This document shows positions 4,033 to 48,413 of a DNA stretch of 64,000 nucleotides, one piece after another. Position 1 is the first letter of the stretch. Each line of letters opens with the position of its first letter. The translations under genes and the position numbers were made by a program. The notes under the pieces were generated by a model. It saw nothing but the letters and a program-made list of their open reading frames with translations. It was not told where the DNA came from and searched no databases. Origin of the DNA: Octopus vulgaris (taxonomy: Eukaryota); assembly GCA_951406725.2 (NCBI GenBank), contig OX597817.1, forward strand, positions 29,264,001-29,328,000, given 5' to 3'.

Positions 4033-4425
4033 TTTCTACTCTAGACACAAGGCCCGACATTATTGGGGAGTGGGCCAGTCAATTAGATTAACCCCAGTAT
4101 GCAACTGTCACTTGATTTATCAACCCTGAAAGGATGAAAGGCAAAATCGACCTTGGTGGAATTTGAACTCAGAACGTAAAGGCAGACAAAATACCTATTT
4201 CTTTACTACCCACAAGGGACAAAACACAGAGAGGACAAACAAGGACAGACAAACAGATTAAGTCGATTATATCGACCCCAGTGCATAACTGGTACTTATT
4301 TAATCGACCCTGAAAGGATGAAAGGCAAAATCGACCTTGGCGGAATTTGAACTCAGAACGTAAAGACAGATGAAATACCACTAAGCATTTCACCCGGTGT
4401 GCTAACATTTCCGCCAGCTCGCCGT
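4033..4425 (-). mobile_element. tRNA-derived SINE family 1 (core CCTTTCATCCTTTCGGGGTCGAT, Meta-domain-like), dimeric
   Basis: - strand head GGCGAGCTGGCGGAAATG and B box GAGTTCAAATTCC; many copies in the window. Confidence 0.85.
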
Positions 4426-5085
4426 CTTTAACAAATGCTTAAAATTCCCAACACTGTTGGATTATGTTTTGTAGTTATTGTTTCATAGCCCTAAGTCAAC
4501 CACAAGGGACAAAACACAGAGAGGACAAACAAGGACAGACAAACAGATTAAGTTGATTATATCGACCTCAGTGCGTAACTGGTACTTATTTAATCGACCC
4601 TGAAAGGATGAAAGGCAAAATCGACCTTGGCAGAATTTGAACTCAAAACGTAAAGACAGATGAAATACCACTAAGCATTTCACCCGGTGTGCTAACATTT
4701 CTGCCAGCTCGCCGTCTTTAACAAATGCTTAAAATTCCCAACACTGTTGGATTATGTTTTGTAGTTATTGTTTCGTAGCCCTAAGTCAACCACAAGGGAC
4801 AAAACACAGAGAGGACAAACAAGGACAGACAAACAGATTAAGTTGATTATATCGACCTCAGTGCGTAACTGGTACTTATTTAATCGACCCTGAAAGGATG
4901 AAAGGCAAAATCGACCTTGGCGGAATTTGAACTCAGAACGTAAAGACAGATGAAATACCACTAAGCATTTCACCTGGTGCGCTAACATTTCTGCCAGCTC
5001 GCCATCTTTAACAAATGCTTAAAATTCCCAACACTGTTGGATTATGTTTTGCAGTTATTGTTTCGTAGCCCTAAGTCAACCACAA
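4210..5085. repeat. three tandem ~290-bp units, each a family-1 SINE plus unique flank
   Basis: CACAAGGGACAAAACACAGA recurs at 4211, 4501 and 4791. Confidence 0.9.
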
Positions 5086-16531: not shown

Positions 16532-16863
16532 TGAAAACAAATGGTATTCAATCTTTCTTTTTAGTAAAGCTTTGTGTAATAGGAACAATTTTTTTCTGAC
16601 GTGATTAGGTGGCCTTATCCTTGGGCACATTGATCGTCAGTGTTTATCCCGCAGCTCAGTTCTGATTGAGTAGATCAAGAATAAAAAAAAAAGTATTCTA
16701 GCCCTCATCATCATCATCATCATCATGCATTTTCTTTTCATTATTTTCATTTCCTTAATGTATCTGAGGAATTCTCTTTGCAAGCATGTTCTTTTGGATT
16801 TGGTTCCACTGCACAGCACCTTGGGTAAGCATTTTCTACAATTGCCCCAGGCTGACCAAAGCC

Positions 16864-17458
16864 AAGACTGAATATATAAACAAGTGCTTGTCCAACAGTG
16901 ACTGCATCATCCATACTCTCAACAATGCGCCCTTAAATATGGTTTCAGATTACAAATATCTTGGGTCATACATATCATCATCTGGAAAAGATTTTCTAAC
17001 TAGAAAGGATATGGCCTGGTCAGCCTGTAATGACATGCATAAGATCTGGTCATCAAATCTAAGTAGAGACTTCAAACTTGAAATCTTCAAAGCCACAGTC
17101 AAACCATTTCTATTATATGGCTCAGAAACCTGGACGTTATCAAAGAAGCTTGAGAGGTGGTTGGATGGAACCTACACTCGCCTCCTTATGAGAGCTCAAA
17201 ATCTCTTATGGAGGCGTCATCCACCCAAAATGCAAATGGACATTGTTGTAGAGTTGAAATCGAGGCAATTTCTACTCTTCTCCTCTGGAAGCCATCTACT
17301 CGCAATACCAGAAGACGTACACTCTCCTACCTTGATGTAATCTCCAGGGATACAGGCATCCAGCAACAGGACCTCTATAATGCCATAATGGACCGTGAAG
17401 TCTGGTGTAGCATGGTAAATTCCATTGTCTCGACCACGGTCGAACAATGATAATGATG
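16864..17458 (+). mobile_element. 5'-truncated RTE/RTEX-like LINE inserted into a family-2 SINE
   Basis: YKYLGS...LLYGSETWTL RT thumb motifs; TGA-repeat tail; AAAGCC duplicated at 16858 and 17459; SINE sequence resumes after the insertion. Confidence 0.85.
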
Positions 17459-36533: not shown

Positions 36534-37139
36534 CTGGGTATTTACTGGGTATTTACTGGGTATTTACCCAACGATGGGTAAATACCCAGAAACCCGGGTC
36601 CATACGTACGTATCACGTCAGGTCGACAATGGGAAGGGTGGCTTCCCTTTGCAAATACTGATAGGGCACAGAAAGGGTGTCAGTAGCCAGCTGGAGAAGA
36701 TGTTCTCCTGGGACTACAAGCTACAGTAGCATCCACTCTGAGTGGTTAGCCACATTTAAGTGGCAAATATACTTCACATTGTCTTGCAGCTACTGTTTAT
36801 ACCTCGTTCAGAGATTTGTTATTGCTTGTTTACACTTTTTCGAGATCGGTGACTTTTCGTCACTGGAAAAAGGATATATGTATTTGCATTGGGACCCCTT
36901 CGCATCGAAGACCGGTGATTGTCGTGCACTAACGACGGATAAATACCCAGAAACCCGGGTCTATACGTATGTATCACGTCAGGTCGACGATGGGAAGGAT
37001 GGCTTCCCTTTGCAAATACTGATAGGGCACAGAAAGGGTGTCAGTAGCCAGCTGGAGAAGATGTTCTCCTGGGGCTACAAGCTACAGTAGCATCCACCCT
37101 TAGTGGTTAGCCACATTTAAGTGGCATATATACTTCACA
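36534..37139. repeat. unclassified structured 361-bp unit in 1.6 tandem copies with a snap-back left junction
   Basis: AATACCCAGAAACCCGGGTC at 36581 and 36942; the second copy ends at TACTTCACA 37139. Confidence 0.85.
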
Positions 37140-37481
37140 ATATTTCCATCTATATAGACTAAAGCTTTTTAAAAGAAGGAAGTATTTCTAAATAAAATAT
37201 TGGTAAACAAAGACAAAAGTAACAGATTTCTGTTTTTATAAGAGAATAATTTTCTGTTCCTGAAAATGTCTTCCAGACATTTTGTTTGTGAGGTTATTGT
37301 AACTGATATTTGTGTTGGTGTTGTTGTTCTTATTATTATCAGTCTAAATCCACTGTGATGATGATGATGTAGTAGACCTATCTTCAGCTTGTAATTTATT
37401 ACATGTGTGTTTGTGTGTGTATAAAACAAATAATATGGGTGGCTCATTAGTGATTTAACAACCTAAAAGCAAATTAATAGA

Positions 37482-37741
37482 GGTCACTAAAATGACAGAG
37501 GGTACTAATTAGTACCAGTATTGCTAGAAATAAGAGTCAAAACAACTCAAAAGCCACAAAGCACTATCTTAATGACTGACAAAGGAAGTTGAGTTTAACC
37601 CGAGGCAATTTGGCTATATCCACTAGATGCTTACCTCCCCTTGTCAGTCATTAAGCTAGTGCTTTGTGACTTTTGAGTTGCATTGACTCTTATTTCCAGC
37701 AATACTGGTACTAATTAGAACCCTCTATCACTTTAGTGCCC
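37482..37741. repeat. 260-bp fold-back (~108-bp imperfect arms), MITE-like
   Basis: 37482-37589 is approximately the reverse complement of 37633-37741. Confidence 0.85.
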
Positions 37742-38006
37742 ACTCTCTCTCTCTATATATATATACACATACATACACATAAATACATACATGTATATAC
37801 ATATATGTGTGTGTGTGTGAGTGTATATATATATATATATATATACATACATACACACACACACACATAAATATATATACATACACACACACACATAAAT
37901 ATATATACATACACACACACACACACACATAAATATATATACATACACACACACACACATAAATATATATACATACACACACACACACACACAAATATAT
38001 ATACAT

Positions 38007-38050
<44 letters not shown>
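37742..38050. repeat. (TA)/(CA) minisatellite-like tract
   Basis: AAATATATATACATACACACAC units ending in pure (TA)n. Confidence 0.9.
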
Positions 38051-38051
<1 letters not shown>

Positions 38052-38328
38052 CCGGAGTAAACACATAAATGTGAAACAAGGTGGAAAAAAGTACTCAAAT
38101 ACCAGTGGTAGAGTAATATGCTTTATTTAAAGCAGCAGAAAATTCAACAAAACCTGTTACTCTGAGTTTCCCGTTGCCGTTCGTCGGACAGTTTTTGCTA
38201 GAATGGAACCGATATGTGAATTCTATCCAGACTATTACAAACGCTACACTTTTAAAAAATGGATTTGTTTGATTGGTCCTTTAGAAATAACGGCCAATTT
38301 TCGAGCGATAAACATAGATGAGTTCAAA
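38051..38328 (-). mobile_element. PLE 3' terminus (probably the distal 3' UTR of element A)
   Basis: on - strand: hammerhead, then AATAAA (~38122-38127), then tail ending in (TA)n; bounded by (TA)n on both sides. Confidence 0.7.
38149..38195 (-). ncRNA. minimal type I hammerhead, U4C variant, quasi-palindromic stem III
   Basis: aaaacugu-CCGACGA-a-cg(gcaa)cg-g-GAA-Acuc(a)gagU-A-acagguuuu; GUA triplet. Confidence 0.7.
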
Positions 38329-38435
38329 TATATATATATATATATATATGTAGGTCCCGGGTTGATTCGGGGTTAACCACAGTAAGTAAGGTACTCAATA
38401 CATAGCAGAGTAAAATTAATTTATTATATAGAAGG

Positions 38436-38486
38436 AGCTTCTACAGGACTAGTACTGTTTCATTCAAGAGAAATCTTCAGGAAGCT
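38436..38486 (-). ncRNA. type I hammerhead ribozyme (left arm of element B)
   Basis: exact reverse complement of 44700-44750. Confidence 0.85.
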
Positions 38487-38901
38487 ATTTAACAAGAATT
38501 GTATTAGCATTTATACATTTAGGCAGGTTTAAAGGAGTGGTGGTGGGGGACTTTTTGGGGGTAGGCATAGCGCAAAATATCATACTTGGGGGAGTGGTCA
38601 AGGAGTCAGTGGTAAGTTAGATGAAAGAATAGATAAATAAAAAAATAAAAAAATAAAAAAATAAAAAATAAAAAAATAAAATAAAAAAATAAAAAAATAA
38701 AAAAATAAAAAATATAAAAAATATATATAAAAAATATATATATAAAAAAATATATATATAAAATATATATATAAAAAAATATATATATAAAAAAAAGGGG
38801 GGATAGAGTTATAGGTAAATAAGGAGATTCTCACTTATACCTATACACACATGTATACGTATCTACACACACATACATACATACACATATATATACACAC
38901 A

Positions 38902-38938
<37 letters not shown>

Positions 38939-39384
38939 ACCTACACACATACATACATACAAATATACATATACATATATATATATACAATCCAATACAG
39001 GCCCATTCCCTAATTTTAATTTTATTATCTTCATTTATTACTTTTGTTATCTTTGATCGCTAGGGCTAAGAATCCTGGCAATGGCTGCATGTCCATTTGT
39101 CTGTCTACTAGAAGGCAAGTACTCATTCCCGCACGCACACTCATTAGCACGTACATTCACCCATTCGTACACTCATACACATACACGTACGCACGCGTTA
39201 TATTCATACATACAAACATCTACATACGTTCACGTATATACACATACGTACTCGTACCTAAAGGTTCGTGTCTACACTTTAGGAGGCTAGTCTATACATA
39301 TACACCAATAAATATACATATATATATATATACACGCATATACATACACACACACACATATATACTCCTACATACAGATACATA

Positions 39385-39430
<46 letters not shown>

Positions 39431-39932
39431 TATATATATACACATGCATATACACACATACATATACACACACATACATACACATATATACATACACAAA
39501 CATATATACACACATATATATATACATACACATATACACACATACATACGTATACATACATACATACATCCATACATCCATACTTACATGCATTTATACG
39601 CATACACACACCCCCATCTATATATATGTATATATATATATATATATATACACACTCACACATACATATACAAATCTACGCACACACATACATACATACA
39701 CGTATACGCATACACGCACATACACATATACATGCGTACCCATACACGTGCACACACGCACGCGCATCCATATATATACACACACACACATATATATACA
39801 CGTGTGCAAGCATACATACATACTCATACGCAAACACATACTTACAAATACATATATGCACACACTTACACACATATATATACACATACACATATACATG
39901 CATACATACATATATGCATACATACACACACG

Positions 39933-39982
<50 letters not shown>

Positions 39983-40041
39983 TACATACATATATAGATA
40001 TATATACACATACATACACATACACATACATACACACATAT

Positions 40042-40084
<43 letters not shown>

Positions 40085-40287
40085 TACATATATACACATA
40101 TACATACATATACATACACACACACATACATATATACATATACACTGATACACATACCCATACATACACATGCATATACTTATATCACTACATACTCACA
40201 TATATAAACATATATACATATACACACATACATATATACATGTACATACACATACGTATGCATATATATATATACATATATATACAC

Positions 40288-40332
<45 letters not shown>

Positions 40333-40572
40333 TACATACATATACATGTATACATACGCAAAAATGATACACATATATACACATACACACACACAGACAG
40401 ATGCATATACATACATATATCTATATAAACTACATATCTATATAAATACATACATAATACACATATACACACACATATATATATATACATTCATGCATAT
40501 ACATATACAAGTATACATACACATACATACACACACACGCGCACACATACATATACACACACACATATACAA

Positions 40573-40639
<67 letters not shown>

Positions 40640-41005
40640 CATGTACACATATACATATGTATATATATATCAACAAGGGAGGGTAAAGTTAATTAGTTAT
40701 TAATCAATTTCATCAAGTGTTCAGTATGTAAAGGGACCATTATTATTTTGAGTAAACAATGTTAGAGGGAAAAAAAATTCTCTAAGTAGTGGAAGAGGCT
40801 AAAAAACTTTATTGGCTGCTATTTCTAGAAAGTTTAGTATGTGGCAAAGTAATTTATTTTATTTTCCTAAGCCCTAATTATATAATATTTTATACATACA
40901 TACACATACATAAGCACATACATTTACACATACATATGCATATACATATATACACATATACATACAAACACATATACACATATACACACACACACACATA
41001 CAAGC

Positions 41006-41050
<45 letters not shown>

Positions 41051-41289
41051 AATATATATACATATATATTTTTACATGCATACATACACACACACACACA
41101 TAATACATGCGTATATTCCTACTGTACCCATGTATTTCTATACATATATACATACATACAAACGATACACATATACAAGCGTGCACATATAATATGTGAA
41201 AGGTCTTAGGAGAAAAGGTAATCGGGGGTGCTAGGGGAACAGTGGGGTTGGGGGGGGGGTTGTAGGAGGGGGGGTCACCTGTAGCTAGG

Positions 41290-41591
41290 GCGTTGTCATC
41301 AATCAGGTTGCCGGGTAGGTCTATAGTTCTTGTAGTTCGCATACTTCTTATGCATGCAATTTGCCAGGAGTGTTCTGAAAATTTGTTAAGGAGAGGGCCT
41401 TTGGCGAACAAGATATCTAGGCTCTCTGATATGCATAGGTCACGGCAGGTATGCCTCCTGTGTACGAGCGCGCCTTCTGTAGTAGTTTCCCACTTGGTCT
41501 TGAAGGGAGTTCCTTTTATAGGTACCCAGATGTGGGCGGCGAGGGTAGTTTGGTTGGATCCTGTCGCCGGAACGAGTGTGTATGTGCATAC
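41290..41591 (-). pseudogene. GIY-YIG endonuclease C-terminal remnant (left arm, frameshifted)
   Basis: mirror of 41625-41930 with small indels. Confidence 0.8.
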
Positions 41592-41607
41592 TTTCCAATG
41601 GTCTTAA

Positions 41608-41922
41608 AGCTTTATGACCCGCTGGTATGCACATACACACTCGTTCCGGCGACAGGATAAATCCAACCAAACTACCCTCGCCGCCCACATCTGGTACCTT
41701 AAAAGGAACTCAATCCCCTTCAAGACCAAGTGGAAACTACTACAGAAGGCGCGCTCGTACACAGGAGGACATACCTGCTGTGACCTATGCATATCAGAGA
41801 GCCTAGAGATCTTGTTCGCCAAAGGCCCTCTCCTTAACAAATTTTCAGAACACTCCCCAAATTGCATGCATAAGAAGTATGCGAACTACAAGAACTATAG
41901 ACCTACCCGGCAACCTGATTGA
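41608..41922 (+). pseudogene. GIY-YIG endonuclease C-terminal remnant of a Naiad-like PLE (right arm)
   Basis: SFMTRWYAH..SF..TTLAAHIW..W..CDLCISE..LLNKFSE..CMH aligns by eye to SFKTRFYSH..SF..TSLAKYVW..W..CNLCLLE..SLNQRSE..CRH of the 630-aa ORF. Confidence 0.88.
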
Positions 41923-42163
41923 TGACAACGCCCCCCTACAACCCCCCCCCTACACCCCCCCCCCAACCCCACTGTTCCCCTAGCACCCCCGATTACCTTT
42001 TCTCCTAAGACCTTTCACATATTATATGTGCACGCTTGTATATGTGTATCGTTTGTATGTATGTATATATGTATAGAAATACATGGGTACAGTAGGAATA
42101 TACGCATGTATTATGTGTGTGTGTGTGTATGTATGCATGTAAAAATATATATGTATATATATT

Positions 42164-42204
<41 letters not shown>

Positions 42205-42566
42205 GCTTGTATGTGTGTGTGTGTGTATATGTGTATATGTGTTTGTATGTATATGTGTATATATGTATATGCATATGTATGTGTAAATGTATGTGCTTAT
42301 GTATGTATGTATGTATAAAATATTATATAATTAGGCTTAGGAAAATAAAATAAATTACTTTGCCACATACTAAACTTTCTAGAAATAGCAGCCAATAAAG
42401 TTTTTTAGCCTCTTCCACTACTTAGAGAATTTTTTTCCCTCTAACATTGTTTACTCAAAATAATAATGGTCCCTTTACATACTGAACACTTGATGAAATT
42501 GATTAATAACTAATTAACTTTACCCTCCCTTGTTGATATATATATACATATGTATATGTGTACATG

Positions 42567-42627
<61 letters not shown>

Positions 42628-42885
42628 ATGTGTGTATGTATGTATTTGTATATGTGTGTGTGTATATGTATGTGTGCGCGTGTGTGTATGTATGTATGTA
42701 TACTTGTATATGTATATGCATGAATGTATATATATATATGTGTGTGTATATGTGTATTATGTATGTATTTATATAGATATGTAGTTTATATAGATATATG
42801 TATGTATATGCATCTGTCTGTGTGTGTGTATGTGTATATATGTGTATCATTTTTGCGTATGTATACATGTATATGTGTATATGTA

Positions 42886-42918
<33 letters not shown>

Positions 42919-43223
42919 GTGTATATATATGTATATATATATATATATGCATACGTATGTGTATGTACATGTATATATGTATGTGTGTATATGTATATAT
43001 GTTTATATATGTGAGTATGTAGTGATATAAGTATATGCATGTGTATGTATGGGTATGTGTATCAGTGTATATGTATATATGTATGTGTGTGTGTATGTAT
43101 ATGTATGTATATGTGTATATATGTATGTGTATATGTGTATGTATATATATATATATATATGTGTATATGTGTGTATGTATGTGTATGTGTATGTATGTGT
43201 ATATATATCTATATATGTATGTA

Positions 43224-43269
<46 letters not shown>

Positions 43270-43765
43270 TGCGTGTGTGTATGTATGCATATATGTATGT
43301 ATGCATGTATATGTGTATGTGTATATATATGTGTGTAAGTGTGTGCATATATGTATTTGTAAGTATGTGTGCGCGTATGAGTATGTATGTATGCTTGCAC
43401 ACGTGTATATATATGTGTGTGTGTGTATATATATGGATGCGCGTGCGTGTGTGCACGTGTATGGGTACGCATGTATATGTGTATGTGCGTGTATGCGTAT
43501 ACGTGTATGTATGTATGTGTGTGCGTAGATTTGTATATGTATGTGTGAGTGTGTATATATATATATATATATATATACATATATATAGATGGGGGTGTGT
43601 GTATGCGTATAAATGCATGTAAGTATGGATGTATGGATGTATGTATGTATGTATACGTATGTATGTGTGTATGTGTGTATGTATATATATATGTGTGTAT
43701 ATATGTTTGTGTATGTATATATATGTGTATGTATGTGTGTGTATATGTATGTGTGTATGTGTATG

Positions 43766-43823
<58 letters not shown>

Positions 43824-44274
43824 TATGTATCTGTATGTAGGAGTATATATGTGTGTGTGTGTATGTATATGCGTGTATATATATATATATGTATATTTAT
43901 TGGTGTATATGTATAGACTAGCCTCCTAAAGTGTAGACACGAACCTGTAGGTACGAGTACGTATGTGTATATACGTGAACGTATGTAGATGTTTGTATGT
44001 ATGAATATAACGCGTGCGTACGTGTATGTGTATGAGTGTACGAATGGGTGAATGTACGTGCTAATGAGTGTGCGTGCGGGAATGAGTACTTGCCTTCTAG
44101 TAGACAGACAAATGGACATGCAGCCATTGCCAGGATTCTTAGCCCTAGCGATCAAAGATAACAAAAGTAATAAATGAAGATAATAAAATTAAAATTAGGG
44201 AATGGGCCTGTATTGGATTGTATATATATATATGTATATGTATATTTGTATGTATGTATGTGTGTATGTGTAGG

Positions 44275-44312
<38 letters not shown>

Positions 44313-44699
44313 TGTGTGTATATATATGTGTATGTATGTATGTGTGTGTAGATACGTATACATGTGTGTATAGGTATAAGTGAGAATCTCCTTATTTACC
44401 TATAACTCTATCCCCCCTTTTTTTATATATATATTTTTATATATATATATTTTATATATATATTTTTTTATATATATTTTTTTTATATATATTTTTTATA
44501 TTTTTTATTTTTTTATTTTTTTATTTTATTTATTTTTTTATTTTTTTATTTATCTATTCTTTCATCTAACTTACCACTGACTCCTTGACCACTCCCCCAA
44601 GTATGATATTTTGCGCTATGCCTACCCCCAAAAAGTCCCCCACCACCACTCCTTTAAACCTGCCTAAATGTATAAATGCTAATACAATTCTTGTTAAAT

Positions 44700-44750
44700 A
44701 GCTTCCTGAAGATTTCTCTTGAATGAAACAGTACTAGTCCTGTAGAAGCT
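44700..44750 (+). ncRNA. type I hammerhead ribozyme (right arm of element B)
   Basis: agcuuc-CUGAAGA-u-uuc(ucuu)gaa-u-GAA-Acag(uacuaguc)cugU-A-gaagcu; 6-bp stem I; GUA triplet; predicted cleavage after 44744; AATAAA at 44761. Confidence 0.85.
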
Positions 44751-44761
44751 CCTTCTATATA

Positions 44762-44795
<34 letters not shown>

Positions 44796-44802
<7 letters not shown>

Positions 44803-47784
44803 AAATATAAAAATATATAAAAAATATATTAAAAAATATATAAAATATAGAAAAATATATTAAAAAAATATATACAAAATTATAAACTTCGAGGAAAAAC
44901 CTTACATTGAATAAAATACATATTGACCTTAATGAAGGAAATATAATTAATACATGGGAATTGAAATGCATTAAAAATATGTATTAAAAATATAACACAG
45001 CAATTCATATTCATATTAAAGTATACATATATACCAACATACACAGAATAGATGCGTGCGAACCCCATACATATCCAGACGTATAAATATAAAGCTAAAA
45101 TATACACGCAGGTGCATGTATACATATGTATACGCAATCTAGCTCGCACGCAAGCTAAAATCATAGTAGATTAAGTATCTTCCGTATTTACGAAGCTTAG
45201 GGCATGAATGAGCGAGGGGAGCGTGAAGCTGCCTGCTGGCTTTATACATGTATCGTATTGTTAGAGAAAAAACGAAAGAAAGGAAGAGAGAGAAAAAGGA
45301 AAAGGGGAAGGAAAAAAAGAAAAGAAAAAAGAAAAAGAACAAAGGAGGGTTGGGGAGAAAAACGGAATAGGAAAAAAAGAAAGACTATGTATACAAGCCG
45401 TGCAACCTCGTACATTGACACATATATAGAGATGCCAGTGCACAAACATGTGTTTGTGTGTGTTCGAGCACAAACATACGCTTACTCACACATACACAGG
45501 GACGCACTCTCACGAACACACACTCGTGGCCATACACACACCTACATCACAATTCTAATTTTTGACAACATTGCTTTTAAAAAAAGGTGAGTGTAATAAT
45601 GAAAATTATATGAGAGATATGTAAAATGTATCCCCCTATTTCAGATCATCTATAAATTAAAATCAAAGTAAGCCTATACAATATAATAACACTAAGTCGA
45701 AGGTTTTTCCTAATAAATATGTAGAAATTTAAACAAAATATATGCATGAGGCTTTGCTATACGGAATGGAATCTGCATAGCGCGAAACAAATCCATCGTT
45801 GCGTTTACATACTAGTCCAAGAATCAAAATCAAAATTTCAAAATCAAAAATACAAAATATATACTCTAACCATATGGTATATTTATGCTTGACATTTTAA
45901 ATTTGGCTGCGTGCCTGCATAAGTTCATCAGCTCACTTCTTTGATTCAAAGAATTATTGTCTTTGAATAAGATGTAGAATTTTTCTAACAGGCAAAGGTT
46001 GCATTTGAAATTATTTTTGTGTGCTCCATGCCTGTATGGTGCCGCTCTGTCCAGAATGCTCCATGTCACATTGAAAGGTGGGGTTTCCTTTTCTTTCAGT
46101 TCCCAGACATATTTTGCTAGGCTGGTCCTCTTCCTATTTTCTGGGTATCTAAATGAATTTTTATGAGAATAAAATCGCGTTTTAAACGAGTTTTCTGAAG
46201 CCCCTGTATATGTCTTGTATTCCGATGAGCCTTCTATTTGTACCTTCGCTTTGTAAACTACTCCTTTTACTAGACATTTCCCTTCTAACGGGCAGAAGGA
46301 TTCATTTTTGAAATTGCATTTCTTAATGGGCTTGGCACCATGTTTAATCTCAATCAGATTCCTATTATGCTGGCTAATGTAAGACGCGAAATTTCTACAA
46401 CAAGAATAGCTAACCTTCAGTGTTCTATTAAATATCCTATAGAATTTATGGTCCTGCTTAAAATGCTTAGAGATTAATTTCAAAAATTCCTTACCTATAT
46501 TAGTCTTTACGGCCAAATTGAAAGCCGGGTTGAACCACAAAACTTTCCTGTTCCTAGTTCTTCGCGCGGTATTATTATCAGCATTAGGCTGGTTGTACTG
46601 GATCTTCTCCGAGAATCCACTATTCCTTAATGCGCTATCGTAATAAGGCGCAGCATTATGGAATGCTGCTTCGTCCGAAGAAATTGAAGATATTCTTCTA
46701 CCTACATTGCTGACTAAGTTCCTAAGGATAACTGGCGGATGGTTCGAATCTTTGCTAATATACGATAGCTTTTCGTTGGGCTTACAGAAAGGTTTAAATC
46801 TATCCGACCTTACATTAAAATTTACGTCTAAAAAATCTACACTATTCAGGTTAGTGTCTATTGTAACCCGTAAGCCCATCCTTTGGAAGAAAGCAATAAA
46901 GTCCTTTCTAAGTCTATCTGATTCATGGCCGTTTAAATTATGGGTGGCTATAAGGCCGTCATCCCTATATAAACCTGCATCTATAAATGGGAATTCTATT
47001 TTTAGATTATGAAGAATACAGGCTCCTACGAGCATACATAACTCAGCCCCGTCGTATGCCCCCATCGGTACATCCAAAAGAGAATCCTCACTCTTCTTGA
47101 TCCAGGTGGAATCCTCGAAAAAAAGAAGTGATATCCTCGCATGCATAATAATAATATCAATTTCCGAGCTATCGATGTCGACATACTGCTTGGCGAAGTC
47201 TAATGCCCTTAGGAGTAACGTCCTAGATATTGACGGGTAAAAATCAATAATATCGAATTGTGTAAAACTGCAATTATTCTTATAGCTAATACCTTTAAAC
47301 CACTCTATGACTGACTTACTATTCTTCCAAATTCTCAAGTTTACTTCACTATCTAACTTAGTTAAAATACGGTCCAAAATATTTTTGCTAATAATGCCTA
47401 TTTCAGTTTTAGCTGGGTTTATCAATCTACATTTAGGGTTTCTATTAAAATTGGCTTTATGGTCTTTTAGTGTAATAAAAGCTGGTCGTGGGGAAAGATA
47501 TTCAATCCTATCACTAACCTTAAGCTTGTTAGCTATTCCTCTTGCTTCCAAATTCACTTCTTTGTATATATTTGTGTTATCTTTTTTGTATGTGTCTGTG
47601 ACACTATTCGAAATCAGGCGTTTATAAACGTCCTTATCAAGTGCATATAAGTTCCTTGTCTTATCAGAATTAACGAAGATCTTATTCGAGTTGTTAATCT
47701 CCTTAATTTTTTCTTTCATATTTCTTTGTAATTGGTTGCTATATTTGCGGAATTTCATTTTCCTAATAAATTCGAAAAGGTCTT
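44796..47784 (-). mobile_element. PLE element A (Naiad-like), 5'-truncated body and proximal 3' UTR
   Basis: reading frame stays open upstream of the Met (DLFEFIRK) to a (TA)n junction at ~47784; ~1.07 kb lies downstream of the stop before (TA)n. Confidence 0.85.
45866..47758 (-). CDS. Penelope-like reverse transcriptase + C-terminal GIY-YIG endonuclease (630 aa, N-terminally truncated)
   Basis: RT motifs FDIIDFYPSI, PMGAYDG, YRDD, FLDV; SNHPP; Cys linker CNF..CPLEGKC; VVY...YTG..FKTR..H; CNLC..EK; LNQRSE..CRH. Confidence 0.95.
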   Translation of the reverse strand: MKFRKYSNQLQRNMKEKIKEINNSNKIFVNSDKTRNLYALDKDVYKRLISNSVTDTYKKDNTNIYKEVNLEARGIANKLKVSDRIEYLSPRPAFITLKDHKANFNRNPKCRLINPAKTEIGIISKNILDRILTKLDSEVNLRIWKNSKSVIEWFKGISYKNNCSFTQFDIIDFYPSISRTLLLRALDFAKQYVDIDSSEIDIIIMHARISLLFFEDSTWIKKSEDSLLDVPMGAYDGAELCMLVGACILHNLKIEFPFIDAGLYRDDGLIATHNLNGHESDRLRKDFIAFFQRMGLRVTIDTNLNSVDFLDVNFNVRSDRFKPFCKPNEKLSYISKDSNHPPVILRNLVSNVGRRISSISSDEAAFHNAAPYYDSALRNSGFSEKIQYNQPNADNNTARRTRNRKVLWFNPAFNLAVKTNIGKEFLKLISKHFKQDHKFYRIFNRTLKVSYSCCRNFASYISQHNRNLIEIKHGAKPIKKCNFKNESFCPLEGKCLVKGVVYKAKVQIEGSSEYKTYTGASENSFKTRFYSHKNSFRYPENRKRTSLAKYVWELKEKETPPFNVTWSILDRAAPYRHGAHKNNFKCNLCLLEKFYILFKDNNSLNQRSELMNLCRHAAKFKMSSINIPYG

Positions 47785-48193
47785 ATATATATAAGACATT
47801 CAGCAATACAGTAAAATGAATAAGGAATATCTATATAAATGTTTGAACAGAGTGATATACTTATCAGAAATATAAATTTCTTCATTGGTAAATATCTCTA
47901 ATTTTCGCTTATCAGGACACTATGGAGATTGCAGTCCTATAATCATATAGAAAATGCTGAATAGCTTAGCTTAGAAGTGGGTAAGCTAAATCATATATTT
48001 ATCTATTTTTGCAACTGATAAAATTTTTTTCTTTTCTTGCAGTATGAAATCATAGCCATACCTTATCCTGAAGTATATTTATATTTGAAACAAATGTGAA
48101 TGAATTAGGAGCTGATACATCACTGCCTAGGTCATTTTGCCCAAAATTTGAAGTGTAACTCCCCGTTTTATTCCATAGCAAGACTATATATAG

Positions 48194-48413
48194 ATTTCTT
48201 TATTGCCCACACAGGGTTAAACATAGAGGGGACAAACAAGGACAGACAAAGTGATTAAGTCGACCCCAGTGCATAACATTGGTACTTATTTAATCGACCC
48301 CGAAAGGATGAAAGGCAAAGTCGACCTTGGCGGAATTTGAAATCAGAACATAACGGCAGATGAAATACCACTTTTCATTTCACCCAGCGTGTGAACGATT
48401 CTGCCAGCTCGCC
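48194..48413 (-). mobile_element. SINE family 1
   Basis: matches the family. Confidence 0.85.

What the first reader, a model, noticed from the sequence alone, without database searches (positions are those of the whole stretch)
38051..47784. Nested PLE complex: element B appears inserted into a (TA)n run in the 3' UTR of element A
Seen: A's downstream region (- strand) ends at (TA)n 44768-44795 with no hammerhead found. Beyond B and another (TA)n (38329-38349), a same-strand segment supplies a hammerhead, AATAAA and a tail into (TA)n. Removing B gives a coherent element: ORF, ~1.4-kb UTR, ribozyme, tail. Established: Naiad-clade PLEs favour (AT)n targets and have 3' hammerheads. Inference: these elements carry their own target sequence and nest in one another.
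Basis: partly seen in the sequence, partly recalled or inferred. Interest (0 to 1): 0.7.

Follow-up and report, generated by a model that had tools for sequence, protein, structure and literature searches.

The report
Penelope retroelements nest in carried microsatellites
A young jumping gene sits inside a short TA repeat that an older, related jumping gene carries in its own tail; both families copy TA repeats, their preferred landing sites, wherever they go, but they likely land in these carried repeats by chance rather than by seeking each other out.

Summary
The nesting is real. Segment 38052-38327 is element A's own 3' end: 26 of 29 other copies found by ORF alone lead into it, through a (TA)n tract that is part of A's UTR. 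B (38350-44767) is a 6.4-kb head-to-head pair of 5'-truncated copies of a second, very young family. Both families are Hydra-clade Penelope-like elements, not Naiad: C-terminal endonuclease, RWK/RWR, DKT, CxCx5C, CxxC and CxH motifs, hammerhead present. Naiads lack hammerheads (PMC8557442). Not found in the papers searched: B carries a 2.9-3.4 kb microsatellite 3' UTR with about 19 (TA)n runs, and one B copy sits inside another B's UTR. Tails are 69 nt, and 24 of 24 two-armed B insertions have exactly one tail. Nesting is uncommon: 2 of 74 B ends outside the window lie in A or B, both from one insertion. That is close to the rough share of targets these elements supply, so no homing is needed. 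The scan has already noted Hydra palindromes and the one-tail rule on other DNA of this genome. Verdict: new variant of a known kind, moderate interest.

The parts
38025..38051 (.). (TA)n target flank at A's tailed 3' end
   Evidence: TRF
38052..38120 (-). A: 69-nt optional 3' tail
   Evidence: Family ends fall in two classes, at this end or 1 nt after AATAAA
38122..38127 (-). A: AATAAA; tail-less copies of the family end one base after it
38150..38195 (-). A: minimal type I hammerhead motif; core reads CCGACGA (U4C), predicted cut after 38158; activity untested
   Evidence: descriptor scan; format compared with File S2 of PMC8557442
38196..38327 (-). A: distal 3' UTR between the internal (TA)n and the hammerhead
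   Evidence: contiguous with the UTR in other copies
38328..38349 (.). Left part of A's internal (TA)n tract, split by B
38350..38418 (-). B left arm: 69-nt tail
   Evidence: 40 of 40 scored copies 100% identical over 38350-38620
38434..38488 (-). B left arm: type I hammerhead motif (CUGAAGA core, U-U at the base of stem II); activity untested
38489..41298 (-). B left arm: about 2.9-kb microsatellite-rich 3' UTR; 19 (TA)n runs of 10 bp or more, 8 of 20 bp or more
41299..41609 (-). B left arm: C-terminal part of the GIY-YIG endonuclease, broken by small indels
41608..41611 (.). Centre of the inverted pair, at a self-complementary AGCT present in the family sequence
41610..41922 (+). B right arm: C-terminal part of the GIY-YIG endonuclease
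   Evidence: 99-100% to family copies
41923..44697 (+). B right arm: microsatellite-rich 3' UTR
44698..44752 (+). B right arm: hammerhead motif
44761..44767 (+). B right arm: AATAAA plus one base, tail-less end
44768..44795 (.). Right part of A's internal (TA)n tract
44796..45865 (-). A: proximal 3' UTR, 1.07 kb
45866..47784 (-). A: 5'-truncated RT plus C-terminal GIY-YIG ORF, 638 open codons of a 711-aa family protein
47785..47793 (.). Short (TA)n at A's 5' truncation point

Best explanation
A 6.4-kb head-to-head pair of a young Hydra-type Penelope-like element (B) sits in a (TA)n tract that belongs to the 3' UTR of an older Hydra-type element (A), likely because B's endonuclease cuts any (TA)n and A happened to carry one. 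Shown: A's ORF, UTR, (TA)n, hammerhead motif and tail are one unit in other copies; B ends lie in (TA)n-rich flanks; B's own UTR carries about 19 (TA)n runs; a B copy sits in another B's UTR. Inferred steps: (1) A inserted into a genomic (TA)n as a single 5'-truncated, tailed copy. (2) Later the B protein, made from another copy, nicked both strands of A's internal tract. (3) Reverse transcription started once at the tail end and once just after AATAAA, on templates from one source element. (4) The two cDNAs were joined at a short self-complementary site, giving the palindrome with one tail. Carried tracts are likely used about in proportion to their share of all genomic (TA)n.
For: UTR-anchored search: 29 of 29 other loci have the hammerhead segment next door in the same orientation; (TA)n of 10 bp or more in 27 of 28 linkers measured. 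ORF-anchored search, not chosen on UTR structure: 23 of 29 contiguous, 2 reach the same end after an insertion, 1 through an internal inversion. L138 is uninterrupted: pLTR, 711-aa ORF, UTR, (TA)n, hammerhead. The linker of close copy L034 matches both window junctions. Age order: B copies 99-100% identical; A copies 77-98%. All 30 tailed B ends shown abut (TA)n, 3 with a one-base interruption. 24 of 24 two-armed B insertions with both ends visible have one tail. Arms of one insertion share private variants. B-in-B at L130, with the neighbouring tandem unit empty. Two RT start sites and cutting of both strands are shown in vitro for another PLE (PMC11167929).
Against: 3 of 29 ORF-anchored loci (L146, L147, L161) show no hammerhead within 1.5 kb; none within about 9.5 kb for L146 and L161; L147 was not extended. 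No read or contig was shown to bridge the A/B junction, because the tool skipped the TA run. The start-site mechanism is borrowed from a Poseidon element with a 30-40 nt tail. The window's right arm is closer to L125 (10 differences) than to its own left arm (16), although the arms share 3 private columns. All genome searches score only the 40 best candidates, so the samples lean to young, intact copies. The share-of-targets estimate rests on one window.
Confidence: 0.9

Rival explanations
1. 38052-38327 is an independent short insertion and A ends at the (TA)n.
For: The segment is abundant by itself (2039 first-look candidates), and many copies are short 3' stubs. Three ORF-anchored loci lack it nearby.
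Against: 26 of 29 ORF-anchored and 29 of 29 UTR-anchored loci lead into it. The same segment forms the pLTR upstream of the ORF in L132, L135 and L138.
Confidence: 0.01
2. The elements home on each other: the internal (TA)n is a selected landing pad and nesting is a main route of spread.
For: The tract is kept at one position across A subfamilies. In the ORF-anchored set, 2 of about 5 independent breaks outside the window fall at a linker that is about 4% of the UTR. B-in-A and B-in-B both occur.
Against: Of 77 distinct B ends with 400-bp flanks, 1 is a tandem junction, 2 are the window's and 2 are L130's; the other 72 match neither family. A search with the window's junction found no second copy among 40 scored of 567 candidates. 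The other inserts in A's tract (L030, L043, L049, L157, L161) match neither A nor B; several look like SINE or LINE pieces (my recall). L012 holds a 3' stub of A plus other sequence.
Confidence: 0.1
3. The 6.4-kb palindrome is an assembly artefact, such as a fold-back read.
For: The left arm near the centre has several small indels (94% to the family, against 99-100% for the right arm). The junctions were not bridged.
Against: The two outer flanks are the two correct halves of A. The arms differ by the 69-nt tail exactly as in 23 other loci. 19 of the 26 EN-anchored loci L191-L216 are two-armed. Tail-less ends into TA also appear in contigs of other runs.
Confidence: 0.03
4. The long microsatellite 3' region is an intron of the pLTR that is spliced out of the mRNA, which would explain its drift.
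For: Earlier notes on this genome report spliced PLE copies (unchecked). B's region varies by internal duplications and deletions.
Against: No deletion with GT..AG ends in any fetched copy of A or B (4 split hits, all in A). No GT..AG joint in 4 runs laid on A's 3' region (8 joints).
Confidence: 0.12

Closest known systems
Hydra clade of C-terminal EN+ Penelope-like elements, including Hydra-1_Obim (Craig et al. 2021, PMC8557442; sections 6 and 11, Files S1/S2, Fig. S7 legend read)
   Same: Domain order, RWK, DKT, CxCx5C, CxxC, CxH, no CCHH, canonical hammerhead, (TA)n insertion, pLTR and inverted 5'-truncated partners. A's hammerhead resembles Hydra-2_aMil's; B's has the U-U step seen in most listed Hydra hammerheads.
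   Different: Units are about 3.5 kb (A) and 5.1-5.7 kb (B), against 2.1-2.7 kb for listed complete Hydra families. Tails are 69 nt, against 30-40 nt described for PLEs. The UTRs carry internal (TA)n tracts. Neither hammerhead is in the supplement text (0 hits), and Hydra-1_Obim's differs.
Naiad clade (PMC8557442)
   Same: (TA)n preference, tandem and inverted structures; reported in Octopus.
   Different: Naiads have an N-terminal endonuclease, a DKA motif, CCHH, and no canonical hammerhead; A and B do not fit on any of these.
Poseidon of Anolis (PAc; Frangieh et al. 2024, PMC11167929; parts 1-2 of 4 read)
   Same: Two end classes that differ by a tail; AT-rich targets; cutting of both strands; hammerhead dispensable in vitro.
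   Different: Different clade. In PAc the hammerhead and start sites overlap the ORF start; here they lie upstream of it, and the tail is 69 nt.
SaTar microsatellite-targeted MULEs (PMC5907723, abstract only) and L1/Alu-born microsatellites (PMC3812793, abstract only)
   Same: Mobile elements that target, or give rise to, microsatellites.
   Different: SaTar elements are DNA transposons in non-nested arrays. L1 and Alu are described as a source of new microsatellites; the abstract does not mention carrying their own target inside the element.

Membership tests
Hydra-clade PLE | Single ORF, RT with C-terminal GIY-YIG endonuclease | tested here: met
   A: 711-aa ORF in L138; B: L114, L121. Pfam scan of both window pieces gave no family; domain calls rest on alignment and motifs.
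Hydra-clade PLE | RWK motif near the N-terminus | tested here: met
   RWK at residue 37 in A (L138); RWR in B (L121); lost from the window copies by truncation
Hydra-clade PLE | DKG changed to DKT | tested here: met
   A window residue 40, L138 residue 113; B in L121
Hydra-clade PLE | CxCx5C linker | tested here: met
   L138 residue 562, L114 residue 416; the window's A has C to F in this motif
Hydra-clade PLE | CCHH absent; CxxC and CxH around the conserved E and N | tested here: met
   0 of 119 homologues match a CCHH-type pattern
Hydra-clade PLE | Canonical hammerhead near the 3' end | tested here: met
   the window's A copy has U4C; cleavage untested
Hydra-clade PLE | Insertion into (TA)n | tested here: met
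Hydra-clade PLE | Generally short (<3 kb); described as typical, not defining | tested here: not met
   A about 3.5 kb, B 5.1-5.7 kb
Hydra-clade PLE | Groups with named Hydra references in an RT tree | not testable with these tools
   No named reference proteins were available as usable sequences; the tree holds unnamed homologues only
Naiad | N-terminal GIY-YIG endonuclease | tested here: not met
Naiad | No canonical hammerhead | tested here: not met
Neptune / Nematis / Penelope-Poseidon | CCHH motif in the endonuclease and DKG motif | tested here: not met

The most novel reading that the evidence does not exclude
Hydra-type elements with microsatellite-filled UTRs are a self-seeding system. 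Every full two-armed B insertion delivers about 40 new (TA)n runs, the runs recruit further PLEs and SINEs, and over successive waves this loop has built a large part of the genome's dinucleotide-repeat DNA.
Probability: 0.2. Interest if true: 0.65.

Novelty: new variant of a known kind. Interest (0 to 1): 0.42.

Why it matters
A (TA)n-targeting retroelement that copies its own target turns each insertion into new landing sites. The 9.7-kb complex holds 17 (TA)n runs of 20 bp or more, against 6 in the other 54 kb of the window. Family B is nearly clonal and has a strict one-tail rule, so it is a good model for the unresolved question of how PLE inverted pairs form. For annotation, such UTRs are likely to be masked as simple repeats, which would split these elements and hide their length. 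It is not a new system.

Tried and rejected
Rfam gave only miRNA-like hits on hairpins and microsatellites; MIR856 at the palindrome centre is far below its cut-off. Pfam found nothing for either protein piece. Fold energies do not separate the ribozymes or tails from shuffles, so I make no claim for a tail structure. Run search: no RNA holder listed. Contigs laid on the left junction could not bridge the TA run; their depth is not a copy number. Intron test was negative but weak. Outliers in B UTR length were internal duplications of 210-526 bp, not foreign inserts; one other outlier stops at an N gap (L209) and one breaks off into other sequence (L206). The tree is the quick version, 48 rows (first 45 of 119 homologues), with B on a long branch; it shows only that A and B are far apart. 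Naiad, Neptune and Poseidon were rejected on motifs. Look-ups of earlier findings near the window and by sequence were empty. No structure prediction or complex job was run.
Full report
What is in the window. The only long non-repeat ORF in the region is 45866-47782 on the minus strand, 638 codons. Self-comparison shows that 38419-44767 is one inverted repeat, 95.6% identical, with most differences in microsatellite lengths. Its centre is at 41609/41610. The left arm has 69 extra bases (38350-38418). A hammerhead descriptor finds three motifs in the window, one in 38052-38327 and one in each arm of B, against 0.01 per shuffled window.

Is 38052-38327 the end of A? Yes. Searching with A's UTR gave 29 other loci, and all 29 have that segment beside the UTR in the same orientation. 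In 27 of the 28 linkers measured, a (TA)n of 10-59 bp lies between the two; one copy has lost the linker. Because that search favours intact UTRs, I repeated it with the last 251 bases of the ORF. Of 29 other loci, 23 run straight through to the hammerhead, 2 reach it after an insertion, 1 is an internal inversion whose other arm has it, and 3 show none nearby, two of these looking like a duplicated pair. The two sets overlap in part. L138 is a whole copy: pLTR with tail, 711-aa ORF, 1.0-kb UTR, (TA)n, hammerhead, tail-less end. The window's A is 5'-truncated about 80 codons into the ORF, next to a short TA run.

What B is. B is two 5'-truncated copies, head to head, of a second family. Each arm holds the end of a GIY-YIG domain, a 2.9-kb UTR, a hammerhead motif and AATAAA. 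Other loci supply the RT; the protein is 43-46% identical to A's. The family is very young: 40 of 40 scored hits are identical over 271 bases, while A copies are 77-98% identical. This fits B having landed in A. Units measure 5.1-5.7 kb in tandem loci. The microsatellite UTR is part of the element: spacings between its unique blocks are nearly constant across about 40 arms, and it varies by internal duplications and deletions. It holds 19-20 (TA)n runs of 10 bp or more, 8 of them 20 bp or more.

Family. Craig et al. (PMC8557442; abstract, sections 6 and 11, passages, supplement part 2 of 59 and three supplement searches seen) define Naiads by an N-terminal endonuclease and no canonical hammerhead. 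They define Hydra by a C-terminal endonuclease, RWK, DKT, CxCx5C, CxxC, CxH, no CCHH, hammerheads and (TA)n targets. A and B meet these features, and so do most of the 119 homologues checked of the 120 listed. They exceed the usual size. A tree with named references could not be built. The unread parts of the supplement may hold Hydra sequences that bear on whether either family was already curated; two hammerhead motifs had 0 hits in its text.

How it likely works. Ends in both families come in two classes: at the end of a 69-nt tail, or one base after AATAAA. All 24 two-armed B insertions with both outer ends visible have exactly one tail; L125, L191 and L209 were left out because one end was not visible. 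Six of six extended two-armed A loci agree. Arms of one insertion share private variants: they are mutual nearest neighbours in 3 of 4 pairs, and the window's arms share three private columns. For the Anolis element PAc, the tail lies between two RT start sites and both strands are cut (PMC11167929, parts 1-2 of 4). I infer one priming event per strand, one per start site, from one source element. The cDNAs were then joined at a short match, here a self-complementary AGCT and in L126 another short palindrome. A's hammerhead core has U4C in 33 of 60 sampled contexts, a sample biased toward the window's subfamily. U4C lowers activity in vitro (PMC3088659, passages), and cleavage is dispensable for PAc in vitro, so A may not need fast cleavage. 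This is untested.

How often do they nest? L130 has a 185-bp B mini-palindrome inside the first (TA)n of another B's UTR, and the neighbouring tandem unit is empty there. Of 77 distinct B ends with flanks, one is a tandem junction, two are the window's and two are L130's. So 2 of 74 ends outside the window are nested in A or B. A rough estimate of supply: 500-1000 arms (469 and 907 first-look candidates, lower bounds) times 8 long runs, against about 310,000 extrapolated from 6 per 54 kb, gives 1-3%. The two figures agree, so no homing is needed; both are crude. Other inserts in A's tract match neither family, except a 3' stub of A in L012.

Comparison and novelty. Tandem and inverted structure, tails, hammerheads and (TA)n targeting are published. 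Five searches (listings and abstract starts only) showed no report of a PLE carrying its target inside a multi-kilobase microsatellite UTR, or of nested Hydra elements. The library lacks most subscription papers. A recent Octopus repeat annotation has no occurrence of 'nested', 'hammerhead' or 'palindrom' in its main text (PMC13282606, passages). The retrozyme preprint was seen as abstract only. Earlier notes of this scan describe Hydra palindromes and the two-start rule elsewhere in this genome; I had reached the Hydra reading before seeing them. Verdict: observation confirmed, clade corrected, new variant of a known kind, interest 0.42.

Noticed in passing
window 37479-37744: 266-bp inverted repeat, 81% identical, MITE-like, unrelated to A and B.
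   Followed up: no
window 47780-47797: A's 5' truncation point forms an 18-bp perfect palindrome around the short TA run; may be a templated snap-back or chance.
   Followed up: no
L093-L131, for example L100 near 1150: Many B copies share a frame break in a C-run between the RT and the endonuclease, while L114 and L120 read through; real subfamily trait or homopolymer error is open.
   Followed up: partly
L208, L210, L213, L214: A 210-bp internal duplication in B's UTR is shared by four loci; a 430-bp shorter UTR type also exists. The UTR evolves in blocks that are then copied.
   Followed up: partly
window 38052-38120 and 38350-38418: Both families have a tail of exactly 69 nt, with a similar short inverted motif right after AATAAA, although the proteins are only about 45% identical; folding was not significant.
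   Followed up: partly
window 41480-41610: B's left arm has clustered small indels near the palindrome centre (94% to the family); assembly error or mutagenic repair.
   Followed up: no
window 4210-5085: Three tandem copies (290-bp period, 97%) of the repeat that also lies at 48181-48413.
   Followed up: no
window 36640-36778 and 37001-37139: 139-bp direct repeat, 97% identical.
   Followed up: no
window 16768-17340: 190-codon frame resembling the end of an RTE-type LINE RT (recalled).
   Followed up: no
P0002-P0120: Hydra-type proteins are very numerous in public data (3059 hits at E<=1e-10 among 7993 candidates), far more than the 27 families listed in 2021.
   Followed up: partly
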